Assembly: GCA_964456475.1 (NCBI GenBank)
Contig: CAYVZI010000001.1
Span: forward strand, 11,762 to 75,761
DNA from: an uncultured Candidatus Saccharibacteria bacterium
GTDB lineage: Bacteria > Patescibacteriota > Minisyncoccia > Phycocordibacterales > UBA9973
DNA length: 64,000 nt
Direction: 5' to 3'
The notes beneath the pieces are model-generated. The model was not told the DNA's origin. It made no database searches and saw only the letters and a program-made list of their open reading frames with translations. This document shows, one piece after another, positions 3,250-52,931 of this stretch. A program made the translations under genes and the position numbers. Positions within the stretch are counted from its first letter, which is position 1, and the number at the start of each line of letters is the position of its first letter.

Positions 3250-3603
3250 ATGAGTATACATACTTTAGCCCAAAAAATCAAGGCCTGGACAGGGGAGAGG
3301 AGACGACCCCTTGTTCTTGTTGGAATCCTTATATTTACGGCTTTTTCCTCCTTTTACGTTGGATATATTGCTCAAATCGAGACAAGTCCAAATGACTATC
3401 AATTCGAACCTCGTAGTACACAATCAGACCCGAAGGCAATCATACAAGCTACTGATGGGGCATTTATCGCCTCCCAAAATGGCACAAAGTACTACCCAAA
3501 GGAATGCATTGGAGCCAAAAGGATTAAGGAGCCTAATCGCGTATATTTTGAAACAGCAGACGATGCAGAGTCGCAGGGTTATTCATTAGCCTCGGGGTGT
3601 TGA
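3250..3603 (+). CDS. small membrane-anchored protein with a C-terminal Ada-like metal-binding-type motif
   Basis: TM helix LVLVGILIFTAFSSFYVGY. The C-terminus KYYPKEC...EPNRVYFETADDAESQGYSLASGC resembles the Ada N-terminal Zn-binding fold pattern (FCRPSC...ENVSFY..EALAAGF.PC..C), but only 2 of 4 Cys are present. Confidence 0.55.
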   Translation: MSIHTLAQKIKAWTGERRRPLVLVGILIFTAFSSFYVGYIAQIETSPNDYQFEPRSTQSDPKAIIQATDGAFIASQNGTKYYPKECIGAKRIKEPNRVYFETADDAESQGYSLASGC

Positions 3604-3614
3604 AGTGATATACT

Positions 3615-4541
3615 TTGTCTGAGACAAAAACAATGGAAAGATCATCAATCATCAGTACAGTCACACTCGTGTTCGTAGTAATTACGATGGTTTTTCTTTT
3701 GAAAACGAACACAGTTCCAAGTATTCTTCTACCCGAGAAGACCACAGAGAATACAGTGCCTATATTGCAACTCCCTGTAGCTGTTAAAAAGATTGAATCA
3801 CCAATTGTACTACCGGGAGGACTCAAGAAGACAAGTGAATCTGATGCAAATAATACACAAGTGCTGCCAGCTGATTATGTTCTCACACGTGCAGGTGTAA
3901 TTTCCGAGACGAACCTGCATCGTGTTAAGTATGGAAAACAAACGTTAGTTGAGAACAAAAAACTTGATAGCTCTGCTCAAGCAAAGGCTGATGATTTACT
4001 CAAACGACAATACTTCGCACACGAAGCACCAGATGGAACAGCAATTGATGACCTGGTTCGTGAACAAGATTACAGCTATATCAAAATCGGAGAGAATCTT
4101 GCTCTCGGGAATTTTTTGAGCAACGCTGATGTAGTCACTGCATGGATGAATAGTCCAGGGCATCGAACAAATATTCTTGATGGTCAGTATACTGAAATTG
4201 GTATTGGGGTCGCTCGAGGTCTCTATGAAGGCCATATGGTATATTTTGCGGTTCAACACTTCGGACGACCAAGATCGTCATGTCCGAGCATAGAGTCAAA
4301 TTTAAAATCACAATTTACAATTGCACAAAAGTATTTGGATGAACTTATCATTTCGATCAATACCCTAAAAGGTGCGATCGACCAGGGGAGCGGGAACAAT
4401 GATGACCTAAATACCCTAATTGAAAAATACAACGCATCAGTGCTTCTTTATAAAGAAGCTTTTCAGAAAGCTGACTCACTCCGCACAAAATATAATGCTG
4501 AGGTTGCTGCATATAATGCTTGCTTAACTGGTGCTCAATAA
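3615..4541 (+). CDS. CAP/SCP (PR-1-like, YkwD-type) domain protein, membrane anchored
   Basis: Motifs HRVKYGKQTL, AQAKADDLL, ENLALG and NSPGHRTNILDGQYTEIGIGV are typical of the CAP domain. N-terminal TM helix. Confidence 0.8.
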   Translation: MSETKTMERSSIISTVTLVFVVITMVFLLKTNTVPSILLPEKTTENTVPILQLPVAVKKIESPIVLPGGLKKTSESDANNTQVLPADYVLTRAGVISETNLHRVKYGKQTLVENKKLDSSAQAKADDLLKRQYFAHEAPDGTAIDDLVREQDYSYIKIGENLALGNFLSNADVVTAWMNSPGHRTNILDGQYTEIGIGVARGLYEGHMVYFAVQHFGRPRSSCPSIESNLKSQFTIAQKYLDELIISINTLKGAIDQGSGNNDDLNTLIEKYNASVLLYKEAFQKADSLRTKYNAEVAAYNACLTGAQ

Positions 4542-4740
4542 TAAGGTAAATGATGAGGGGGGGGGCACCACTTGATGACAAAGTAGTGTCCTTATTTGTC
4601 TGTGTGGAAAACTATATGGTAATGTCGCACAATATATCTTTCACGACATTATATCCTAATATAATGTGCGTGAAAGATAGCGATTATTTTCCAACGTGAT
4701 TACACATCGGAAAATAATCTTTGGGCCGTAGACCCACACT

Positions 4741-4769
4741 GTCATTCCGGACTTGATACGGAATCCATG
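4741..4769 (+). repeat. hairpin element family GTCATyCCGGA-loop-TCCGGrATCCA, copy A
   Basis: gtcattccggacttgatacggaatccatg. The stem is attccg/cggaat. Confidence 0.7.
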
Positions 4770-4844
4770 AATGTATTCTCCCCTCGATGCCTGCCACAAA
4801 TTTTTTCAAAAAAGTTTTCAAAATTATTTTCTTACAAAAATTGT

Positions 4845-5192: not shown

Positions 5193-6461
5193 CTACGATT
5201 TCACTTGCTTCAACAAATCATCGATACTAACGGTTTCGATGGTGATTTTGCCGTTGTGACCGGTAAAAATTTTCCATACACCATCAGAAGGAACTATTGA
5301 ATACTTCCCTTTGAACTTTAAAACTAATAAATCCTTCATTTCATTAAAAGCCAATTTCTTGGCTGTATCTAAAACTTCAGGCCTTACAATATTTTTCAGT
5401 TTAGGCGTAAGCAATTCAGTAACTTCAGCTGTAACGTCGTCATGTATCTCATCTTTCATCGTGTTACGCAGGTTGTTTTCAAAGGTAAGTGCATAATCCT
5501 TTTCCCACTGTGGTTTACGACGGTTAACAATCTCTTCTTCATCAGGAATAAGAGACTTGCCGTATTCGTGCAAAAATGCAACTTTTTCGGCACCGCTTAG
5601 GTTTTCATAAGCAAGCCGAGCCATTTGCATAGCTGGTGAATTTGGCGTAGCAACAGGCTCGGATACGATTGATACAACAACAGGTTGCACTGCTGTCGGC
5701 TTTGGAGTCGAACTTTCAGGTGCGGGAGTGACTTTCTCTTCTGCTGTATTTTTATCTCCAGGTTTACCATTGGACGTATTGTCCTCAGTGCCACCTTTTG
5801 ATTTCTGTTCCTCCTCAATTTTGGCTTTTGGTGGAAAACAATCTGCACTTATGACATCATTGAAATAGACTGAGTAGTCTTCCTCATTTGGCAATTCGAC
5901 AAGAGTCACTGTTGCTTTACTACCCACGTACGCATTAAAACCGCATTCGAGTAAATAGAACAATGTGCGCTCTCCTTGAAGCTTGCTACAGTTGTAAACC
6001 GTGGCGATACACTTGGCCACAGACTCTTCGTTAGCAAATTTTACATCACTACAATGCAATCCACTTCTTAGGCCAGCCTTCCTCAATAGTGATTTGAGTG
6101 AATCAAGGCGTATTTTAGGATCGATTGTAATGGTTTCGCTTCCGTTTTCATGATCAGCAGACTTTTCTTCACCGTAAGTGGTTAAAAAAGTTTCTGTCTC
6201 GTCACTTACTTTGAATTTAAATACGAGAGTACCGCTTGTACGTTTATCTTCGCACGTCATATACTTATCGTACTTTAACATGTGATCCTTTATTCTATTA
6301 AATAAGCCATTGTCACTACCTTTGACTATTAGAATGGGATAAGCAACCGTGCTGTTGCCATTCTGTGTCTGTGAAGTAAACGATGTACTTATTTTTCGAA
6401 TCTCCTTTTTTACTGCGTCCAAAAAGAAGTGTGCTTTCGTTCTGCAAAGATCTGTTACCAT
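5193..6461 (-). CDS. hypothetical protein with central low-complexity K/E/T/P-rich linker
   Basis: 422-aa ORF bounded by a terminator. No recognisable motif. Confidence 0.6.
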   Translation of the reverse strand: MVTDLCRTKAHFFLDAVKKEIRKISTSFTSQTQNGNSTVAYPILIVKGSDNGLFNRIKDHMLKYDKYMTCEDKRTSGTLVFKFKVSDETETFLTTYGEEKSADHENGSETITIDPKIRLDSLKSLLRKAGLRSGLHCSDVKFANEESVAKCIATVYNCSKLQGERTLFYLLECGFNAYVGSKATVTLVELPNEEDYSVYFNDVISADCFPPKAKIEEEQKSKGGTEDNTSNGKPGDKNTAEEKVTPAPESSTPKPTAVQPVVVSIVSEPVATPNSPAMQMARLAYENLSGAEKVAFLHEYGKSLIPDEEEIVNRRKPQWEKDYALTFENNLRNTMKDEIHDDVTAEVTELLTPKLKNIVRPEVLDTAKKLAFNEMKDLLVLKFKGKYSIVPSDGVWKIFTGHNGKITIETVSIDDLLKQVKS

Positions 6462-6500
6462 AACCGTTGTTTTTTAATTGTGAAAGAATATAATATATAT

Positions 6501-6532
6501 AGCATATATTGAGTCATATGTCAATATATGCT
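6501..6532. promoter_or_regulatory. 12-bp perfect inverted repeat AGCATATATTGA-N8-TCAATATATGCT in 5' region of the 5193..6461 gene
   Basis: Seen directly. It shares an ATATGTCAATA core with 40843-40860. Confidence 0.4.
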
Positions 6533-6564
6533 GAAAAAGGATAATATCCCTAAAAACCAAGGCA

Positions 6565-7107
6565 TCAGTAGCGTGTAAGGCCTTTTCTGAGGGTCTTCCA
6601 GTCTGGACATTCTTTTGCCACCAAGGACCAGAAACGGTCGCTGTGATTGTGCTCTTTGAGGTGACAGACTTCGTGAATGATGATGTAGTCTTGAAGCTCT
6701 TTCGGTAGAAATACGATCTTGTAATTGAAATTGAGGTTGCCTCGCTTGGAACAACTCCCCCATCTTCCCTTCTGATTTCCGATGCGAATGGCGCCGAATG
6801 CGAATCCGTATTTCCTCGCATAGAACTGCGTGCGCTCGTAACCGAGCGCACGTGCTAGCTCTTTGTGAGCTTTATAGTCTTTGACGGTGAGTTTTCCGAG
6901 CAACGGAGCCGGATGATTTTTGATATATTCAAGTCGTTTTTCAATCCAATCAGTGTGTCTCTCAACGAATTTTGTAACAAATGAATTTGGGACCAGTTTT
7001 GGTTTTGAAACAATAATTGTTCCATCAGATTGCACTGAAAGACGCATGTTTTTTGCGCGTTTAGACACTCGGATTTGATATTCAAATACTGTTTTCATAA
7101 AGATCAT
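6565..7107 (-). CDS. DUF45/YgjP-like zinc metallopeptidase-fold protein (HEXXH)
   Basis: IIHEVCHLKEHNH near the C-terminus and the overall YgjP/SprT-like pattern; 180 aa. Confidence 0.7.
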   Translation of the reverse strand: MIFMKTVFEYQIRVSKRAKNMRLSVQSDGTIIVSKPKLVPNSFVTKFVERHTDWIEKRLEYIKNHPAPLLGKLTVKDYKAHKELARALGYERTQFYARKYGFAFGAIRIGNQKGRWGSCSKRGNLNFNYKIVFLPKELQDYIIIHEVCHLKEHNHSDRFWSLVAKECPDWKTLRKGLTRY

Positions 7108-39606: not shown

Positions 39607-40227
39607 ATGGATTTACTCAAACGCCTTCAACAATCATTCAAACGATTTCCCGGAATTGGTGAACGCCAAGCGATGCGCTTTGCCTATTTCTTGGCGACTG
39701 CCGACGATGCCTATGTACGCAATCTGACGGAAGAAATTCTAGCGCTCCGTAAAAACGTCCGTCGTTGCGCGAGATGCTTCGCCTTGTCCGAAAAAATACT
39801 TGAAGGGCTCTGTCCAGTCTGTGCCGATCCGGCAAAAGACAAATCAATGATTCTCATTGTTGAAAAAGACGCTGACCGAGATCGCTTCATTCAATCTCGC
39901 ACATATTCCGGAACATATTTTGTGCTTGGTGGACTTGCACCTGCAATTGAAAAAGACGCGAATCAGCACATTCGCCTCGACGAACTCGCAAAACTTGTCG
40001 AAAAAGAGTCTGCCGTGAATCTTAAAGAAGTAATCCTCGCTCTTTCTGCAACGCCCGATGGAGATCGCACCGAAGCGCTCATCCTCGCTCGACTTGAAAC
40101 CGTCGCAAAAGACAAAAACATTTCTCTCTCCATGCTCGGCAAAGGACTCTCAACCGGAACAGAAATTGAATACTCTGATGCAGAAACACTATCTTCGGCC
40201 CTAAAATCGAGAACTCATACAAATTAA
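39607..40227 (+). CDS. recR: recombination protein RecR
   Basis: HhH PGIGERQAMRFAYF, a C4 zinc finger CARC...CPVC, and a Toprim domain. Confidence 0.9.
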   Translation: MDLLKRLQQSFKRFPGIGERQAMRFAYFLATADDAYVRNLTEEILALRKNVRRCARCFALSEKILEGLCPVCADPAKDKSMILIVEKDADRDRFIQSRTYSGTYFVLGGLAPAIEKDANQHIRLDELAKLVEKESAVNLKEVILALSATPDGDRTEALILARLETVAKDKNISLSMLGKGLSTGTEIEYSDAETLSSALKSRTHTN

Positions 40228-45113: not shown

Positions 45114-45153
45114 AAAAATCGTTTACTACAAATTTGTAGTAAACGATTTTTAA
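45114..45153. terminator. bidirectional intrinsic terminator (16-bp arms)
   Basis: aaaaatcgtttactacaaatttgtagtaaacgattttt. Confidence 0.8.
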
Positions 45154-48062: not shown

Positions 48063-48267
48063 ATTCTGTCTTCTGAATTATAGGTATGTTACGACAAGAC
48101 TACTCTTACTAGTATATTCCTTTTTTTTCAATAAACCACTAGTTTTGGCAATTTATTGATAATATTGACATTATATATTATTTATGCTATTATTTCAAGT
48201 AAATCCCGGTTTAGTGAGATGAGCGTCCAGTCCACCTGGAAATTGATCTCACTAAATCCATTAAAAA

Positions 48268-48762
48268 TTGAAAACAGGTTCGCGACTCGGAAGAATTCTC
48301 TTAGGGATAGGAGCTTTTCTTGCAACGAGTGGTTTCAGCTACTCGTTTGATTATTTTGTTTACCCGATTGTTACCTATTATTTCGGGTTCTCAAAAAGTT
48401 TAATTATTTTATTTCTCGCTGCGCTTATCATGAATTATTTCGTTGTACTTTTGTACGATCTGTTCAAAAAAGATTTTTTTGGATTTGAGGCACTTAAGGA
48501 AATGAAGGAGTCAGGTAACGGCAGAGGTATGATGTACAGAATAATGAAATGGGGCGATATTCCCTTCTTTATCTTTCTTTCATGGTACGACCCAATATTT
48601 GCGGTTTTATACAAAAGGAGGAGTAAAAGCTTTAACGGCTTTAGAAGGAGAGATTATTTTATTCTTGTGCTTAGTACATTAATTGGGTGTATTATCTGGT
48701 CAGGATTTTGGTCAGCAGGTATTGAATTTGTTAAATACATATTTCCACAATGGTTCTCCTAG
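48268..48762 (+). CDS. hypothetical membrane protein (TTG start)
   Basis: 4 predicted TM helices. Its 3' end is duplicated at 50530-50660. Confidence 0.5.
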   Translation: MKTGSRLGRILLGIGAFLATSGFSYSFDYFVYPIVTYYFGFSKSLIILFLAALIMNYFVVLLYDLFKKDFFGFEALKEMKESGNGRGMMYRIMKWGDIPFFIFLSWYDPIFAVLYKRRSKSFNGFRRRDYFILVLSTLIGCIIWSGFWSAGIEFVKYIFPQWFS

Positions 48763-48822
48763 CAATAGCGAGAGCCATTTTTTTATCCTATTTTTAAACA
48801 ATAATGAGAGTCCCTCGTTTCG
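48693..48822 (+). repeat. direct repeat copy 1 (~130 bp; 3' end of the 48268 gene plus 60 bp downstream)
   Basis: About 97% identical to 50530-50660. Confidence 0.85.
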
Positions 48823-49015
48823 ATATAATCTGATTTTATTATAAGTACCCCCCCTTTTTTTGCGTATTAAAAAACAAAACTGCAGTCCCCGCTTGTTTTT
48901 TTTGGCAACTGCCTATGATATTCTTCGTCAGTTAATTTTTTGGACATGAAAATTGTCTTTCTAATTTGACATAGAAATAATACTACTGTAGTTTAATATA
49001 TAAAAATATCTTTAT

Positions 49016-49579
49016 ATGGGACTTATTGAAATAAAGGGAAAGAGGCTAACCTTGAGAGAAATTTCAAAAGATGATCTGCCCCAATTACTCCTTTGGAGAA
49101 ATTCGGAAATCTTTCAAAAATCATGTCTTTCCTACTCGAAAGACTGCACAATTGAAGAACTTGACAGAGAAATTGACATTTCATATCGTCAAGATAAATA
49201 TGCTCAATTTATTGCTTGGACATCAGACGACAAGCCAGTAGGTACGAACTGGATATATCGATACCACAAAACAAATGGCATAGGATTTACCACAACATTT
49301 GTTGATGAGCAATACAGACAAAGTCATTATTATGCGATTGAAATGTTCGCACTCATTTGCAAATATATGTTTAACGAACTTGCTTGTCGAAAGATTTACT
49401 CAGAAGTTCACGCTGGGAATACTCCTTCAATGAATATCTTCAACAAACTTAATCTTCCTCTTGAAGCGACATTTAAGAATCACTCAAAAGTGGGTTTGAA
49501 CGATTTCGAGGATCTGTTGGTTTACGCCTTGTACAAAGAAGCCTTTGAATCCATGAATATTCCAAAAAAACTTTTGTGA
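49016..49579 (+). CDS. GNAT family N-acetyltransferase (RimJ/RimL-like)
   Basis: GNAT fold pattern including the motif A region. Confidence 0.7.
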   Translation: MGLIEIKGKRLTLREISKDDLPQLLLWRNSEIFQKSCLSYSKDCTIEELDREIDISYRQDKYAQFIAWTSDDKPVGTNWIYRYHKTNGIGFTTTFVDEQYRQSHYYAIEMFALICKYMFNELACRKIYSEVHAGNTPSMNIFNKLNLPLEATFKNHSKVGLNDFEDLLVYALYKEAFESMNIPKKLL

Positions 49580-49580
49580 C

Positions 49581-49612
49581 CGCACCAGCATTGGTGTGGT
49601 TTTTTAATATTC
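49581..49612. terminator. bidirectional intrinsic terminator
   Basis: accgcaccagcattggtgtggtttttt. Confidence 0.7.
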
Positions 49613-49846
49613 CATTTTGAGAATTAAACCTTTCGGGATTGAAAAATATTTCGGTTGAGCTTCTGGGTGTTTTTTGTTTGTATGAATATTTAGTGTCTCC
49701 TCGTTTTCTACTATAATATAATCGGCACTTTCTTTGACGAGAGTGCCAATAGTTTTCATCTGACTTGGAGTGCTAATTTCCTCATTCGAGGAATACATGA
49801 ATATATCGTTCCAATATATTGTTACTTGCTGATTATTCTTTATCAT
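49604..49846 (-). CDS. small protein, paralog B of a tandem pair
   Basis: 80 aa. It shares the pattern TIyW.D...P...G.li.E.......KK......IP...ii..K with the upstream ORF. Confidence 0.5.
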   Translation of the reverse strand: MIKNNQQVTIYWNDIFMYSSNEEISTPSQMKTIGTLVKESADYIIVENEETLNIHTNKKHPEAQPKYFSIPKGLILKMEY

Positions 49847-50110
49847 AAAAATCTATCTTTTTAAACTCAATAATTGCATTTTCAGGAATGATAAAGCCAT
49901 TAGTGGGAACCATACTTTTCTTTTCTTTGTCATAGTGAACACTGCATGCAATATTCGTCCATTGTTCGTTTGTCTCTATAATGAAGCCACAGGTCAAATT
50001 AATCTTTGGAGTTTCATTCTCGAGTGCCTGTATATCATCAGTATATGCAGCATCCCGCCAGAGAATAGTACAAATAGGATTTTTATAATTTATGTTTTTT
50101 GTAGCCATGT
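49833..50110 (-). CDS. small protein, paralog A of the tandem pair (trimmed to MATKNINYK)
   Basis: About 92 aa. The ORF-track N-terminal His-rich extension overlaps another frame and was rejected. Confidence 0.45.
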
Positions 50111-50172
50111 AAATAAAATGTAAAAAGTGCAGTAATATTATACCACACTTTTTATTTTTGTAGTGACACGGA

Positions 50173-50382
50173 TTATTTTCCGCTACTACTGCCACCACTA
50201 CTGCTATGTGATGATGACGAATTACTGGATGAATTATTACTCGACGATGCCTTGTGGGCAGCTCTTTCTGGTAATTCACCAGATTTTTGTGCATGATCAC
50301 GTGCATCATGCCAAGCAGACGATACTTCCCTTGTTGAGGAATTGGTATCTCGTGCTGCATCAGATTTAGTATATTCTGACAA
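50173..50382 (-). CDS. small hydrophilic protein with Ser-rich C-terminal tail
   Basis: TTG start preceded by AAGGAGGA at 7 nt, and a TTGACA-N16-TAAAAT promoter about 60 bp upstream. Confidence 0.5.
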   Translation of the reverse strand: MSEYTKSDAARDTNSSTREVSSAWHDARDHAQKSGELPERAAHKASSSNNSSSNSSSSHSSSGGSSSGK

Positions 50383-50529
50383 GTCTATATCCTCCTTTTC
50401 AAGCCTAGTTTTATTCCTGAAAACCTTCCGGAACCTTGCTTAATTATATTTTACTATAATAGGAAAGGTTGTCAATGAAAATACTCATATTCAGTGACTT
50501 AAATAAATAAGTACTGCCACAGGCTGTCT

Positions 50530-50660
50530 TATCTGGTCAGGATTTTGGTCAGCAGGTATTGAATTTGTTAAATACATATTTCCACAATGGTTCTCCTAGC
50601 AATAGCGAGAGCCATTTTTTTATCCTATTTTTTAAACAATAATGAGAATCCCTCGTTTCG
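50530..50660 (+). repeat. direct repeat copy 2 (non-coding remnant of the 48268 gene 3' end)
   Basis: Same as copy 1 apart from 3 differences. It has no start codon. Confidence 0.85.
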
Positions 50661-50710
50661 GTTCTTCATCACTTTGGTTCCACAGACTACGATCTATAAT
50701 ACCGAACTCA

Positions 50711-52042
50711 TTAGTCTAAAAGAAAATGCATAATGGCTGGTGCTTGAATCAATGCATGCGTTTTACCGTATAGCACAAACTGAGAAATCCCGGCCAGATG
50801 ATTCTTTATAATCTGGCCCGCAATGTGTGCGTCTCGATACCCAGCGATGAATGAGGCTATTTCGCGAATAGGATTTTCTTCATTAGTAGGATCAGAGAAA
50901 CGATAAAAAAGATCTGAATCCTCCTGGTTCAATTGGTGACCTGAAATTCTTTGATGAATTTCGGAAAATATTTCAAGCGAATAAGTCGCTTTTGTTAAAT
51001 CATTGAATTCGTCGATAAAATATTGAATGTATGATACAAAGTCAGGTTTATCAGTCTCTTGCGAATACTGATATGCTCGGTCGCACATAAGCGAATAAAA
51101 AACCAGATTAAGTCCATATTTCTCTGATGCATCATCAATTATCTTCTTTTGATCAGGTTCGTAACAAACGGATCGAATCCCTGCTCCTGAAGCGAGAAAC
51201 ATTAGATATCCTCCTTCACCTCCCTGATTGATTATTGATGAGTGTTTGTCAGAAGCCACGTCACGTAAAGCTCCTTCTATCACTACACATCTGTTTTTTC
51301 CTTCGGTATTTGTCAAAAAAACGTCGAATTTTGATTCAATTTCCGTAAACACTGGATCGTTAGGTTCGTATGAATGACGAACCCCTAGATAATAAAGTGT
51401 GGCTTTAGCCGAATCGTATATTTTAAAATAAACATCTTGGTCAGTCTCAAGTTCTTGGACATTAGCATACGAAACAAGTTTGTCCCGAATGGAATCTATG
51501 GAAGTAATTTGATTCATACTTATACTTCTTTGTATAAATTCATAATCCCTCATAATATTGTACGCTGTTTGATAAAAATCTACGTCTGTTGTTTTAAGAA
51601 GCTCAACTTGTTGTCTGAGAATTTTAAGTGTTTCGTTCGGTGACTTCCAAACAACAAAGTGCCCCACTTCAATTTCATCGGCGGTGAGCTGTAGCTCACC
51701 CTTTCCTCCTACGACATCGACAACATAGCAATGAGTAATTACATGCCTATTCCGTGCCGGACGATAATCATCAATCTCTCCAATATATCCTTGAATTGAG
51801 ACATCACAACCAATCTCTTCCTTGCACTCGCGTAAAATTCCCTCTTCGATCGATTCTCCTTCCTCAATTCCACCGCCGGGCAAAAGAAAAAATCCATGGC
51901 GATTCGTGCCAACAAGCGCAATATTTCCTTCCTGATCAAGGGCAACTACACGTCCGGTTAGTCGGTCAATATACTCAACACCATCAAGTGGCGTGTTGCG
52001 ATTCGGTAATACATCTTTTTCATAATAAGTTTTTAGATGCAT
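50711..52042 (-). CDS. NUDIX hydrolase fused to an uncharacterised ~290-aa C-terminal domain
   Basis: Nudix box LPGGGIEEGESIEEGILRECKEEIG at residues 55-80. The C-terminal domain has no recognised motif. Confidence 0.7.
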   Translation of the reverse strand: MHLKTYYEKDVLPNRNTPLDGVEYIDRLTGRVVALDQEGNIALVGTNRHGFFLLPGGGIEEGESIEEGILRECKEEIGCDVSIQGYIGEIDDYRPARNRHVITHCYVVDVVGGKGELQLTADEIEVGHFVVWKSPNETLKILRQQVELLKTTDVDFYQTAYNIMRDYEFIQRSISMNQITSIDSIRDKLVSYANVQELETDQDVYFKIYDSAKATLYYLGVRHSYEPNDPVFTEIESKFDVFLTNTEGKNRCVVIEGALRDVASDKHSSIINQGGEGGYLMFLASGAGIRSVCYEPDQKKIIDDASEKYGLNLVFYSLMCDRAYQYSQETDKPDFVSYIQYFIDEFNDLTKATYSLEIFSEIHQRISGHQLNQEDSDLFYRFSDPTNEENPIREIASFIAGYRDAHIAGQIIKNHLAGISQFVLYGKTHALIQAPAIMHFLLD

Positions 52043-52891: not shown

Positions 52892-52931
52892 AAAATGGGT
52901 TTGCGACAATTGTCGCAAACCCATTTTTTAA
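52892..52931. terminator. bidirectional intrinsic terminator (15-bp stem)
   Basis: aaatgggtttgcgacaattgtcgcaaacccatttttt. Confidence 0.8.

What the first reader, a model, noticed from the sequence alone, without database searches (positions are those of the whole stretch)
48693..50660. About 1.97-kb segment bounded by ~130-bp direct repeats that duplicate the 3' end of a membrane-protein gene
The last 70 nt of the 48268..48762 gene plus 60 nt downstream recur at 50530-50660 with 3 differences. The second copy is a non-coding remnant, with no start codon but the same frame and stop. Between the copies lie C8/T7/T8 homopolymer tracts, a GNAT acetyltransferase on the plus strand, and a convergent minus-strand operon of three small ORFs with its own promoter and strong SD. 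Bracketing a segment with direct repeats of a gene 3' end is the signature of site-specific integration into that 3' end, or of a duplication. Because the copies are about 97% identical, the event looks recent. No integrase is present, so the element is either non-autonomous or the result of replication slippage.
Basis: seen in the sequence. Interest (0 to 1): 0.6.

Follow-up and report, generated by a model that had tools for sequence, protein, structure and literature searches.

The report
Repeat-flanked accessory gene module insertion
A 1.7-kb four-gene accessory module has been inserted just after a membrane-protein gene in an uncultured Saccharibacteria-like bacterium, copying about 150 bases of that gene's end in the process; with no integrase present, ordinary recombination is the more likely cause than a self-mobile element.

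Summary
The repeat is real. Copy L is 48692-48822 and copy R is 50529-50660, and they differ by one T-run indel and one G/A change. Weaker homology extends the right copy back to about 50509, so roughly 150 nt are duplicated.

The interior is an acetyltransferase (GNAT) gene plus a three-gene operon. That operon encodes a small Ser-rich protein and two paralogous Sm/Hfq-like small proteins. The same module recurs in about 22 other CPR (candidate phyla radiation, i.e. Patescibacteria) contexts, at different genomic positions.

A relative at about 80% nucleotide identity has the empty site, with the membrane gene directly abutting the NUDIX gene. Another relative carries an unrelated 7.3-kb segment that starts inside the repeat region and has no repeat of its own.

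No recombinase gene, tRNA gene, terminal inverted repeats or conserved ends were found. The right copy varies between strains: it is allele-mosaic in one and has lost 84 nt in another. So the insertion predates strain divergence, and repeat identity is a poor clock.

Best reading: homology-driven insertion, either a Campbell-type single crossover or homology-facilitated illegitimate recombination (HFIR), in a naturally competent lineage. Integrase-mediated integration is less likely. Unexpectedly, three to four other instances of the module are also bracketed by 28-102-nt duplications of local gene ends.

The parts
48268..48762 (+). Target gene: a 164-aa predicted membrane protein with no Pfam family. 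The start is uncertain (TTG at 48268; a public record holds a 110-aa version matching residues 55-164). It stays intact.
   Evidence: ORF list. No Pfam, PHROG or NCBIfam match. Nine homologues, all uncultured. A 100%-identical 110-aa version, P0002, lies on a 105-kb NCBI contig.
48692..48822 (+). Left direct repeat, 131 nt: the last 71 nt of the membrane gene (stop included) plus 60 nt downstream. Diverged homology to the right copy starts at about 48672.
48823..49015 (.). Left non-coding end of the insert. It carries C7, T7 and T8 homopolymers whose lengths vary between strains.
49016..49579 (+). GNAT N-acetyltransferase ('G'), 187 aa, of the Acetyltransf_3 (RimJ/RimL-like) class.
   Evidence: Pfam PF13302, E = 1.2e-13. 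Exact copies occur in five other assemblies. Homologues of 53-54% identity lie in other CPR genomes.
49578..49601 (+). Terminator-like hairpin between the convergent GNAT gene and the small-ORF operon.
49604..49846 (-). 'T': 80-aa small protein, a paralogue of M.
   Evidence: hhalign against the M family gives 96.9% probability.
49833..50108 (-). 'M': 91-aa small protein predicted to form a five-strand small beta-barrel of the Sm/Hfq-like type.
50173..50382 (-). 'S': 69-aa protein with a TTG start, a strong Shine-Dalgarno sequence, a conserved N-terminal motif (DAA+DT..VS.AWH.AR) and a Ser-rich tail ending in SGK.
   Evidence: No Pfam match.
50448..50475 (-). Promoter-like site (TTGACA-16-TAAAAT) for the S-M-T operon. 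It lies inside the insert.
50509..50660 (+). Right copy. It comprises a dead 3' remnant of the membrane gene (codons from about S136 to the TAG at 50597-50599) plus 61 nt downstream. The near-identical part is 50529-50660. The first ~20 nt match the L008/L012 allele, not the window's own gene.
50711..52042 (-). Right flank: a 443-aa NUDIX-domain protein. In relative L009 its 3' end lies directly next to the membrane gene, which is the empty site.

Best explanation
**What it is.** The segment is a strain-variable accessory gene module: GNAT plus the S-M-T operon. It entered the gap between the membrane-protein gene and the NUDIX gene of a Saccharibacteria-like CPR bacterium by homology-driven recombination, not by a dedicated integrase.

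**How the repeats arose.** Incoming DNA carried the module next to a ~150-nt copy of the membrane gene's 3' end from a different allele. It came either as a circle or as a linear fragment from a related strain. It recombined with the resident gene in one of two ways:
- a Campbell-type single crossover; or
- a double event whose right-hand joint lay upstream of the end of the left-hand homology (homology-facilitated illegitimate recombination, HFIR).

Either route duplicates the homologous stretch. The result is an intact gene on the left and a promoterless, start-less remnant on the right.

**What happened afterwards.** The two copies exchanged sequence by gene conversion in the window's lineage. 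In another strain the remnant began to decay.

**Shown versus inferred.**
- Shown: the repeat, the empty site, the foreign-allele edge of the remnant, the lack of recombinase, att core or terminal repeats, and the presence of the module at other loci in other genomes.
- Inferred: the recombination route and the nature of the donor.

**Function of the module.** Unknown. My low-confidence guess is an N-acetyltransferase working with, or on, a small Sm-like heteromer and a disordered Ser-rich protein.
For: **The insertion is real and polymorphic.**
- L009 (about 80% nucleotide identity) has the membrane gene followed within about 20 nt by the NUDIX 3' end.
- Logan unitigs from SRR12712864 are 100% identical to the window. 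They break exactly k-1 = 30 nt from where the shared repeat sequence starts or stops.
- L013 runs from the module through the remnant into the NUDIX gene in one contig.

**The remnant's 5' edge comes from another allele.**
- The sequence AGTACTGCCACAGGCTGTC at 50510-50528 matches the L008/L012 allele at 18 of 19 positions. It differs from the window's own gene at 7 of 19 positions.
- Two diverged alleles recombining would produce this. A simple target duplication would not.

**The copies keep changing.**
- The right copy in L002 keeps the other allele for a further ~35 nt (4 clustered differences).
- The right copy in L013 has lost 84 nt between two TTATC microrepeats.

**No site-specific machinery was found.**
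- There is no recombinase in the segment, and none among ten Pfam-scanned unannotated ORFs of the window. The remaining window ORFs look like housekeeping genes by eye only.
- There is no tRNA gene.
- There are no terminal inverted repeats; the alignment score of 7 equals the shuffle mean.
- Module instances share no DNA-level conserved ends, only coding similarity.
- There are no viral-contig matches.

**Other breakpoints in the same gene end are illegitimate.**
- L008 has a 7.3-kb replacement starting at about 48735-48750 with no flanking repeat.
- L012 has a remnant of the same gene truncated at residue 103.

**Microhomology-mediated deletions occur in these lineages.** The junctions are TTATC in L013 and AATAAT in L021 versus L022.

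**The L035/L036 pair shows how such a repeat forms.**
- Both share the same module and left flank (99.7% identity).
- The right copy in L035 begins with 14 nt carrying the SNP of L036's downstream gene and continues as the left-copy sequence.
- Recombination through a short homology patch would give this pattern.

**Precedent and plausibility.**
- Single crossover of circular molecules carrying a lacZ-end fragment gave 109-950-bp duplications of that locus (PMC3240628).
- Saccharibacteria are naturally competent and integrate DNA by homologous recombination (PMC10633639).
- The closest named relatives of this locus are Saccharibacteria and Paceibacterota MAGs.
Against: - The donor arrangement has not been observed. 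That would be the module next to a membrane-gene 3' fragment in a circle, or in another genomic context.
- How that junction first formed is unexplained.
- Only 64 kb of the genome was searched for recombinases, so an integrase acting in trans cannot be excluded.
- 131 nt of near-identity bounded by sharp edges is also what att sites carried by an element look like. The e14 prophage with icd and icdC is an example.
- Three to four other instances of the module are bracketed by duplications of unrelated local sequences. This recurrence is more than I would expect from occasional recombination accidents. It hints at a mechanism tied to the module itself.
- A k=31 assembly graph cannot distinguish the integrated form from an empty site plus a free circle. 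The window contig itself is the only evidence that links the membrane gene body to the module.
Confidence: 0.55

Rival explanations
1. Site-specific integration. The repeats are attL and attR of an integrative element that targets the 3' end of the membrane gene. The element either lost its integrase by deletion (a CIME-like relic) or is mobilised by an integrase encoded elsewhere.
For: - The architecture is the same as e14 with icd and icdC: an intact gene extending into the element and a C-terminal pseudogene fragment at the far end (PMC13626634).
- It is also the same as CIMEs (cis-mobilizable elements), which keep att sites but no recombination genes and measure 1.2-13 kb (PMC7563491).
- The repeat has sharp edges and is long and nearly identical.
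- The site is empty in a relative.
Against: - No integrase is present in the segment or among the window ORFs scanned; the remaining window ORFs were judged by eye only.
- No related integrase-bearing element sits at this site in L008, L009 or L012.
- There are no viral-contig matches to the module or to the repeat.
- The switch from foreign to own allele in the right copy lies at different positions in the window and in L002. A fixed crossover point does not predict this.
- In other genomes the module lies at other targets with unrelated flanking duplications, such as the dnaJ 3' end and an aminotransferase 5' end. No single att specificity goes with it.
Confidence: 0.2
2. The module is a non-autonomous mobile cassette of an undescribed kind. 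Its insertion generates long target duplications of variable length (about 30-150 nt), for example through widely staggered nicks or template switching.
For: - Of about 22 independent contexts, the flanks align far above shuffled controls in the window (135 nt), L035 (102 nt, 99%), L040 (47 nt, the last 47 nt of dnaJ), L058 (53 nt) and L036 (28 nt, imperfect).
- The duplicated sequences are local and unrelated to one another.
- In the window, L040 and L036 the duplication preserves the neighbouring gene.
- L014 has dnaJ followed directly by a weak homologue of the gene that follows the L040 insert.
- By my rough classification of the hits, about half of all direct repeats of at least 35 nt in these loci touch the module.
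Against: - None of the four proteins resembles a nuclease, recombinase or polymerase.
- There are no conserved termini or inverted repeats.
- About 17 of 22 contexts show no flanking repeat.
- The remnant edge in the window comes from a different allele than the left copy, which a fresh target duplication would not give.
- My enrichment estimate is marginal, roughly p = 0.02-0.05. It is a hand estimate, it rests on metagenome contigs, and it includes one case (L058) that is a repeated terminator-promoter spacer.
Confidence: 0.12
3. Local duplication. Either a tandem duplication or slippage copied the gene end, or an old second copy of the membrane gene was later truncated. The interior genes would then be unrelated bystanders.
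For: Two copies of a gene end lie in direct orientation. Perfect 161-nt intergenic duplications occur in L058.
Against: - The 1.7-kb interior duplicates nothing in the window.
- The interior is a coherent conserved module found elsewhere.
- A relative has the empty site.
- The remnant's edge is of a different allele.
Confidence: 0.05
4. Assembly artefact. The true state would be an empty site plus a separate small circular molecule or another strain's variant, threaded together through the shared 131-nt sequence.
For: In k=31 unitig graphs the repeat collapses, and both traversals are possible. No independent contig spans from the membrane gene body into the module.
Against: - L013, from a different sample, links the module to the NUDIX flank in one contig because its remnant lacks the shared core.
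- The junctions recur in five or more samples.
- The two copies carry distinguishing variants that stay linked to their own downstream sequence.
Confidence: 0.05

Closest known systems
Campbell-type single-crossover integration and homology-facilitated illegitimate recombination (HFIR) of DNA that carries one homologous segment
   Same: - Inserted DNA is flanked by direct repeats of the homologous segment.
- Repeat size is in the range seen experimentally: 109-950-bp duplications of the lacZ end (PMC3240628).
- No dedicated recombinase is needed.
- The two copies are allelic variants with mosaic boundaries.
- The host group is naturally competent (PMC10633639).
   Different: - This is a natural event in an uncultured CPR bacterium, and the donor molecule is unknown.
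- The homologous segment of ~150 nt is short.
- The same module shows comparable flanking duplications at other loci in other genomes, which the laboratory precedents do not address.
e14 prophage in icd of E. coli K-12, with the icdC pseudogene
   Same: The element sits in the 3' end of a protein-coding gene. The gene stays intact because its end is supplied within the repeat. A C-terminal fragment pseudogene marks the far end, and the two copies differ by a few substitutions (PMC13626634).
   Different: e14 is a ~15-kb prophage that, from my own knowledge, encodes its own integrase; SOS-induced excision is stated. Here the insert is 1.7 kb, with no recombinase and no phage genes.
CIMEs (cis-mobilizable elements) of streptococci
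   Same: They are small (1.2-13 kb) cargo-carrying segments bounded by att direct repeats at the 3' end of a gene. They lack all recombination and transfer genes (PMC7563491).
   Different: CIMEs are defined as decay products of ICEs or IMEs, and they are mobilised when such an element integrates next to them. No ICE, IME or integrase with this specificity was found at or near the site in the window or its relatives.

Membership tests
Integrase-mediated integrative element (prophage, ICE, IME or genomic island) at a gene 3' end | Direct repeats (attL and attR) at both ends that include the target gene's 3' end | tested here: met
   131/132-nt repeats, two differences.
Integrase-mediated integrative element (prophage, ICE, IME or genomic island) at a gene 3' end | A tyrosine or serine recombinase gene inside the element, usually next to one att site | tested here: not met
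   The four interior ORFs are a GNAT and three small proteins with no Pfam, PHROG, NCBIfam or PADLOC recombinase match.
Integrase-mediated integrative element (prophage, ICE, IME or genomic island) at a gene 3' end | A fixed crossover core shared by all copies of the element, and the same target in different hosts | tested here: not met
   The allele switch point in the right copy differs between the window and L002. The module lies at other targets in other genomes. The repeats of different loci share no motif.
CIME (decayed integrative element that keeps its att sites) | att repeats present while recombination and transfer genes are absent | tested here: met
CIME (decayed integrative element that keeps its att sites) | Derives from, or lies in tandem with, an ICE or IME of the same att specificity | tested here: not met
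   No such element is present in the window or at the site in L008, L009 or L012. The rest of the genome was not available.
Campbell-type or HFIR homology-driven insertion | The repeats are the duplicated homologous segment, and the copies derive from two different alleles | tested here: met
   The remnant's 5' edge matches the L008/L012 allele, not the window's own gene. L002 keeps more of that allele.
Campbell-type or HFIR homology-driven insertion | A donor molecule that carries the insert next to the homologous fragment | not testable with these tools
   No circular form or alternative context for the right junction was found. Unitig graphs are ambiguous.
Campbell-type or HFIR homology-driven insertion | The host is capable of DNA uptake and homologous recombination | not tested
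   From the literature only: Saccharibacteria are naturally competent (PMC10633639) and Patescibacteria retain recombination genes (PMC12455944). A RecR-like ORF at 39607-40227 was recognised by eye only.
Transposon or insertion sequence | A transposase, terminal inverted repeats and a short target duplication of fixed length | tested here: not met
   No transposase. The terminal inverted-repeat score equals the shuffle mean. The duplication is ~150 nt here and 28-102 nt elsewhere.
Integron gene cassette | An attC site at the cassette end and an IntI integrase with attI nearby | tested here: not met
   No imperfect-palindrome attC-like site appears at the ends. No integrase was found among the ORFs scanned in the window; the remaining ORFs were judged by eye only.

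The most novel reading that the evidence does not exclude
The GNAT-S-M-T module may be a previously undescribed non-autonomous mobile cassette of CPR bacteria. It would relocate among the junctions of a conserved neighbourhood (dnaJ, membrane gene, 7TM histidine kinase, cysS). Each insertion would create a long duplication (about 30-150 nt) of the adjacent gene end that keeps that gene intact. The route could be circle excision and RecA-type reintegration, or an unknown mechanism using widely staggered cuts.
Probability: 0.15. Interest if true: 0.75.

Novelty: new variant of a known kind. Interest (0 to 1): 0.45.

Why it matters
CPR (Patescibacteria) genomes are tiny, and little is known about how they gain and shuffle genes. 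This locus gives a clean, multi-strain example with filled, empty and decaying states. In it, gene gain leaves a long duplication of a gene end without any integrase. That fits acquisition by natural transformation and recombination, which has been shown experimentally for Saccharibacteria. It also warns that such repeats should not automatically be read as att sites, and that repeat identity is not a reliable clock.

Separately, the work defines a conserved but rare four-gene module of unknown function. It consists of an acetyltransferase, a disordered Ser-rich protein and two Sm/Hfq-like paralogues. The module moves around within one genomic neighbourhood and is unusually often flanked by such duplications. 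If that association holds up in a wider survey, it would point to a new mode of cassette mobility.

Tried and rejected
- **Exact-protein look-ups.** The 164-aa membrane protein and its 110-aa public version returned no contigs. The source contig itself could therefore not be retrieved.
- **Genome collection scan.** The membrane-protein family gave only three loci, and the source genome was not among them.
- **Viral contigs.** There were no relatives of M, as a single sequence or as a profile, and no exact match to the repeat core.
- **Rfam.** No family matched anywhere in the window, so the repeat is not a known RNA gene or riboswitch. There are no tRNA or tmRNA genes.
- **Protein family searches.** PADLOC, PHROGs and NCBIfam gave nothing for S, M or T, except one weak PHROG of unknown function for M (E = 0.0013). 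The GNAT has no sequence match among PDB entries. Pfam at E up to 1 gave nothing for seven S homologues and three T homologues.
- **Shared motif among repeats.** Only a 9-mer, AATGAGAGT, is shared between the window and L035. By my own estimate that is expected by chance about 1 time in 10, and in L035 it is coding sequence.
- **Terminal inverted repeats** of the insert: none.
- **Other candidate repeats.** The direct repeats in L029, L041 and L042/43/60 turned out to be duplicated promoter or leader regions or extended -10 promoter motifs. They do not bracket the module.
- **Toxin-antitoxin or defence island.** I considered this for the GNAT plus small ORFs and found no support.
Full report
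**1. The observation**

The repeat exists as described. The repeat finder returns 48685-48798 and 50522-50635 at 97%, with a one-base-shifted continuation to 48822 and 50660. The pairwise alignment shows uninterrupted identity from 48692 to 48822 against 50529 to 50660. It has one T5/T6 indel and one G/A substitution. An 85-nt core occurs exactly twice in the window, and none of 100 dinucleotide-preserving shuffles reached even one match.

The left copy is the last 71 nt of the 164-aa ORF 48268-48762, stop included, plus 60 nt downstream. The right copy keeps frame and stop. It follows an in-frame TAA at 50504-50506 and has no possible start codon. The homopolymers are C7, T7 and T8.

**2. What lies between the repeats**

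| Gene | Coordinates | Strand | Description |
|---|---|---|---|
| G | 49016-49579 | + | GNAT acetyltransferase, Pfam Acetyltransf_3, E = 1.2e-13 |
| T | 49604-49846 | - | 80 aa |
| M | 49833-50108 | - | 91 aa |
| S | 50173-50382 | - | 69 aa, Ser-rich, TTG start after AAGGAGG |

- The S-M-T operon has a TTGACA-16-TAAAAT site at 50475-50448. A hairpin terminator lies between the convergent units.
- S, M and T match no Pfam, NCBIfam or PADLOC family. M has one weak PHROG match (E = 0.0013, unknown function).
- M and T are paralogues (hhalign 96.9%, E = 1.8e-10).

**3. The organism and the neighbourhood**

- The window encodes housekeeping genes. Examples recognised by eye are CysS, DnaJ, cell-wall synthesis genes and aminoacyl-tRNA synthetases.
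- The closest named relatives of the locus are MAGs labelled Candidatus Saccharibacteria and Candidatus Paceibacterota.
- No tRNA gene and no Rfam family lies in the window.
- Ten ORFs without obvious function were scanned with Pfam, and none is a recombinase.

**4. Independent assemblies**

- The exact GNAT protein occurs on five short contigs from other samples.
- In SRR12712864, three unitigs are 100% identical to the window. They end exactly 30 nt (k-1) from where the shared repeat sequence starts or stops: L007 ends at 48721, L001 spans 48766-50558, and L006 starts at 50603. The junctions are therefore real in the reads. A k=31 graph cannot, however, separate the integrated form from an empty site plus a circle.
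- L013, from SRR12762287, links the module to the NUDIX gene in one contig.

**5. Relatives: empty, different and decaying states**

| Locus | Relation to window | State of the site |
|---|---|---|
| L009 | ~80% nucleotide identity | Empty: the membrane gene is followed within about 20 nt by the 3' end of the NUDIX gene |
| L008 | 93% over the left flank; same sample as module contig L004 | Diverges at about 48735-48750, inside the repeat region. An unrelated 7.3-kb segment follows (aromatic lyase, CntK_N, peptidases, HisRS). Homology resumes at 51533. No flanking repeat |
| L012 | Saccharibacteria MAG | Only a remnant of the membrane gene (residues 103-161) next to the same lyase region; unrelated genes upstream |
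| L013 | Same insertion as the window | The right copy has lost 84 nt between two TTATC microrepeats. Module is 98.9% identical to the window, the NUDIX flank only 95.7% |
| L002 | Same insertion as the window | The right copy carries four clustered substitutions that match the L008/L012 allele |

In the window itself, the 19 nt left of the near-identical part of the right copy (50510-50528) match the L008/L012 allele. They do not match the window's own gene.

It follows that the insertion predates the split of at least three strain lineages, and that the remnant derives from a different allele than the intact gene. The near-identity in the window is at least partly due to later exchange between the copies.

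**6. The interior is a conserved module with a variable address**

- M has only 22 close homologues in 5.8 billion proteins. It has 84 cluster representatives among 1.84 billion.
- Their contexts, together with 36 metagenome loci, show S-M-T as a constant trio. In about half of the non-redundant contexts a GNAT of the same subfamily lies next to it.
- The address differs between genomes:
  - between the histidine kinase and cysS in L015-17;
  - next to lepA in L019;
  - next to ileS in L022;
  - directly after dnaJ in L040.
- Several of these genes belong to one conserved neighbourhood (dnaJ, membrane gene, 260-aa gene, 7TM kinase, cysS), also seen in L010 and L014.
- Similarity between instances is confined to coding sequence. 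The insert has no terminal inverted repeats. There are no viral matches.
- L021 differs from L022 by loss of the GNAT and the S start between two AATAAT microrepeats. The flank is 91% identical on one side and 99.96% on the other.

**7. An unexpected recurrence**

I aligned the 450-nt flanks of each of about 22 independent module contexts. Scores far above shuffled controls came from the following loci.

| Locus | Flanking duplication | What is duplicated |
|---|---|---|
| Window | 135 nt | 3' end of the membrane gene plus downstream sequence |
| L035 | 102 nt, 99% | See the L035/L036 comparison below |
| L040 | 47 nt | The last 47 nt of dnaJ; a remnant KDVKKIVDDLREKGV* follows the T gene |
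| L058 | 53 nt | A terminator-promoter spacer that is part of a 161-nt perfect repeat including another gene's 3' end |
| L036 | 28 nt, imperfect | The first codons of the downstream aminotransferase gene |

- L014 has dnaJ followed directly by a weak homologue of the gene that follows the L040 insert.
- The duplicated sequences are local and unrelated to each other.
- About 17 contexts show nothing.
- L035 and L036 share the module and left flank at 99.7% but differ on the right. The right copy in L035 starts with 14 nt carrying the SNP of L036's aminotransferase gene and continues as the left-copy sequence. Recombination through a short homology patch would give this, either by circle excision and Campbell re-entry or by an overlapping-anchor double crossover.

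**8. Interpretation**

The specific mechanisms offered fare less well.
- Slippage or duplication is excluded by the foreign, conserved interior and by the empty site.
- Integrase-mediated integration cannot be excluded for the unsampled part of the genome. Several results argue against it:
  - no recombinase was found in the segment or among the ORFs scanned;
  - there is no tRNA gene;
  - there is no fixed crossover point;
  - no element of that specificity is seen in relatives;
  - different targets are used in other genomes;
  - two other breakpoints in the same gene end look illegitimate.
- I therefore favour homology-driven insertion. The experimental precedent is that single crossover of circles carrying a lacZ-end fragment gave 109-950-bp duplications (PMC3240628). 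Saccharibacteria are naturally competent and integrate DNA by homologous recombination (PMC10633639).
- By architecture, the closest named analogues are e14 with icd and icdC (PMC13626634) and streptococcal CIMEs (PMC7563491). Membership in either fails on the integrase or parent-element criterion.

**9. What remains open**

- The donor configuration has not been seen.
- The link between the membrane gene body and the module rests on the window contig alone.
- The recurrence of flanking duplications around this module is only marginally beyond what I estimate for chance (a hand estimate). It is still striking enough to keep a 'new kind of cassette mobility' reading alive at about 15%.
- The function of the module is unknown. 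An acetyltransferase acting with an Sm-like heteromer and a disordered Ser-rich partner is a guess from fold and gene linkage only.

**10. Verdict**

This is a real, well-delimited insertion scar in a CPR genome. It is most likely made by ordinary recombination rather than by a site-specific element. It is a new variant of a known kind and of moderate interest, with a minority reading that would be considerably more interesting.

Noticed in passing
window 49604-50382 and loci L015-L062: S-M-T is a conserved three-gene operon of CPR bacteria: a Ser-rich small protein plus two paralogous Sm/Hfq-like small beta-barrel proteins. A GNAT of one subfamily lies next to it in about half of the contexts. 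It matches no Pfam, NCBIfam or PADLOC family (only one weak PHROG hit of unknown function for M), and the M family has only 84 representatives among 1.84 billion proteins.
   Followed up: partly
L035 4863-4964 / 6515-6616; L040 5607-5653 / 6484-6530; L058 951-1003 / 1861-1913; L036 18-45 / 1670-1697: Other instances of the module are also bracketed by direct duplications of local sequence: the dnaJ 3' end, an aminotransferase 5' end, and an intergenic terminator-promoter spacer. The duplicated sequences share no motif.
   Followed up: partly
L012 4148-4324: An independent, start-less remnant of the same membrane gene (residues 103-161) in a Saccharibacteria MAG. It lies next to the same lyase region as in L008, and the contig has no intact copy of the gene.
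   Followed up: partly
L008 2910-10225 versus window 48750-51533: A close relative replaces the gene's last codons, the module and the C-terminal two thirds of the NUDIX gene with a 7.3-kb segment (aromatic lyase, CntK_N, M15 and S66 peptidases, AstE/AspA-like protein, HisRS). That segment has no flanking repeat.
   Followed up: partly
L021 3716-3721 versus L022 6301-7033: Loss of the GNAT gene and the S start codon between two AATAAT microrepeats. Identity to the sister contig jumps from 91% on the left to 99.96% on the right of the junction, which marks a recombination boundary.
   Followed up: partly
L050 1305-1503 / 4633-4824: A 200-nt direct repeat (88% identity) made of the GNAT 3' end plus its downstream terminator, with the copies 3.3 kb apart. 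It brackets two other genes and most of the module. Flanking 211-aa genes are paralogous at 69% nucleotide identity.
   Followed up: no
L029 2178-2337 / 5335-5494; L041 132-240 / 3561-3670; L058 133-293 / 898-1058: The promoter and leader region in front of S (110-161 nt, 90-100% identical) is duplicated in front of other genes in the same contigs. This suggests a shared regulatory leader.
   Followed up: no
window 48210-48256: An inverted repeat with 21-nt arms (81% complementary) and a 5-nt loop lies immediately upstream of the membrane gene's start. It matches no Rfam family.
   Followed up: no
window 45114-45151 and 52892-52927: Perfect 38-nt and 36-nt palindromes lie in the gaps between cysS and the histidine kinase, and between the 80-aa ORF and dnaJ. 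They are probably bidirectional terminators. Logan unitigs end at them.
   Followed up: no
window 48855-48861 and 48896-48903: Homopolymer lengths in the insert's left non-coding end differ between strains: T7 versus T8 in L005, and T8 versus T6 followed by GGG in L003 and L005.
   Followed up: no
L035 2964-3833: Fragments that look like an IS3-family transposase (DDE core and an orfA-like helix-turn-helix) lie about 1 kb upstream of the repeat-flanked module. This was judged by eye only.
   Followed up: no
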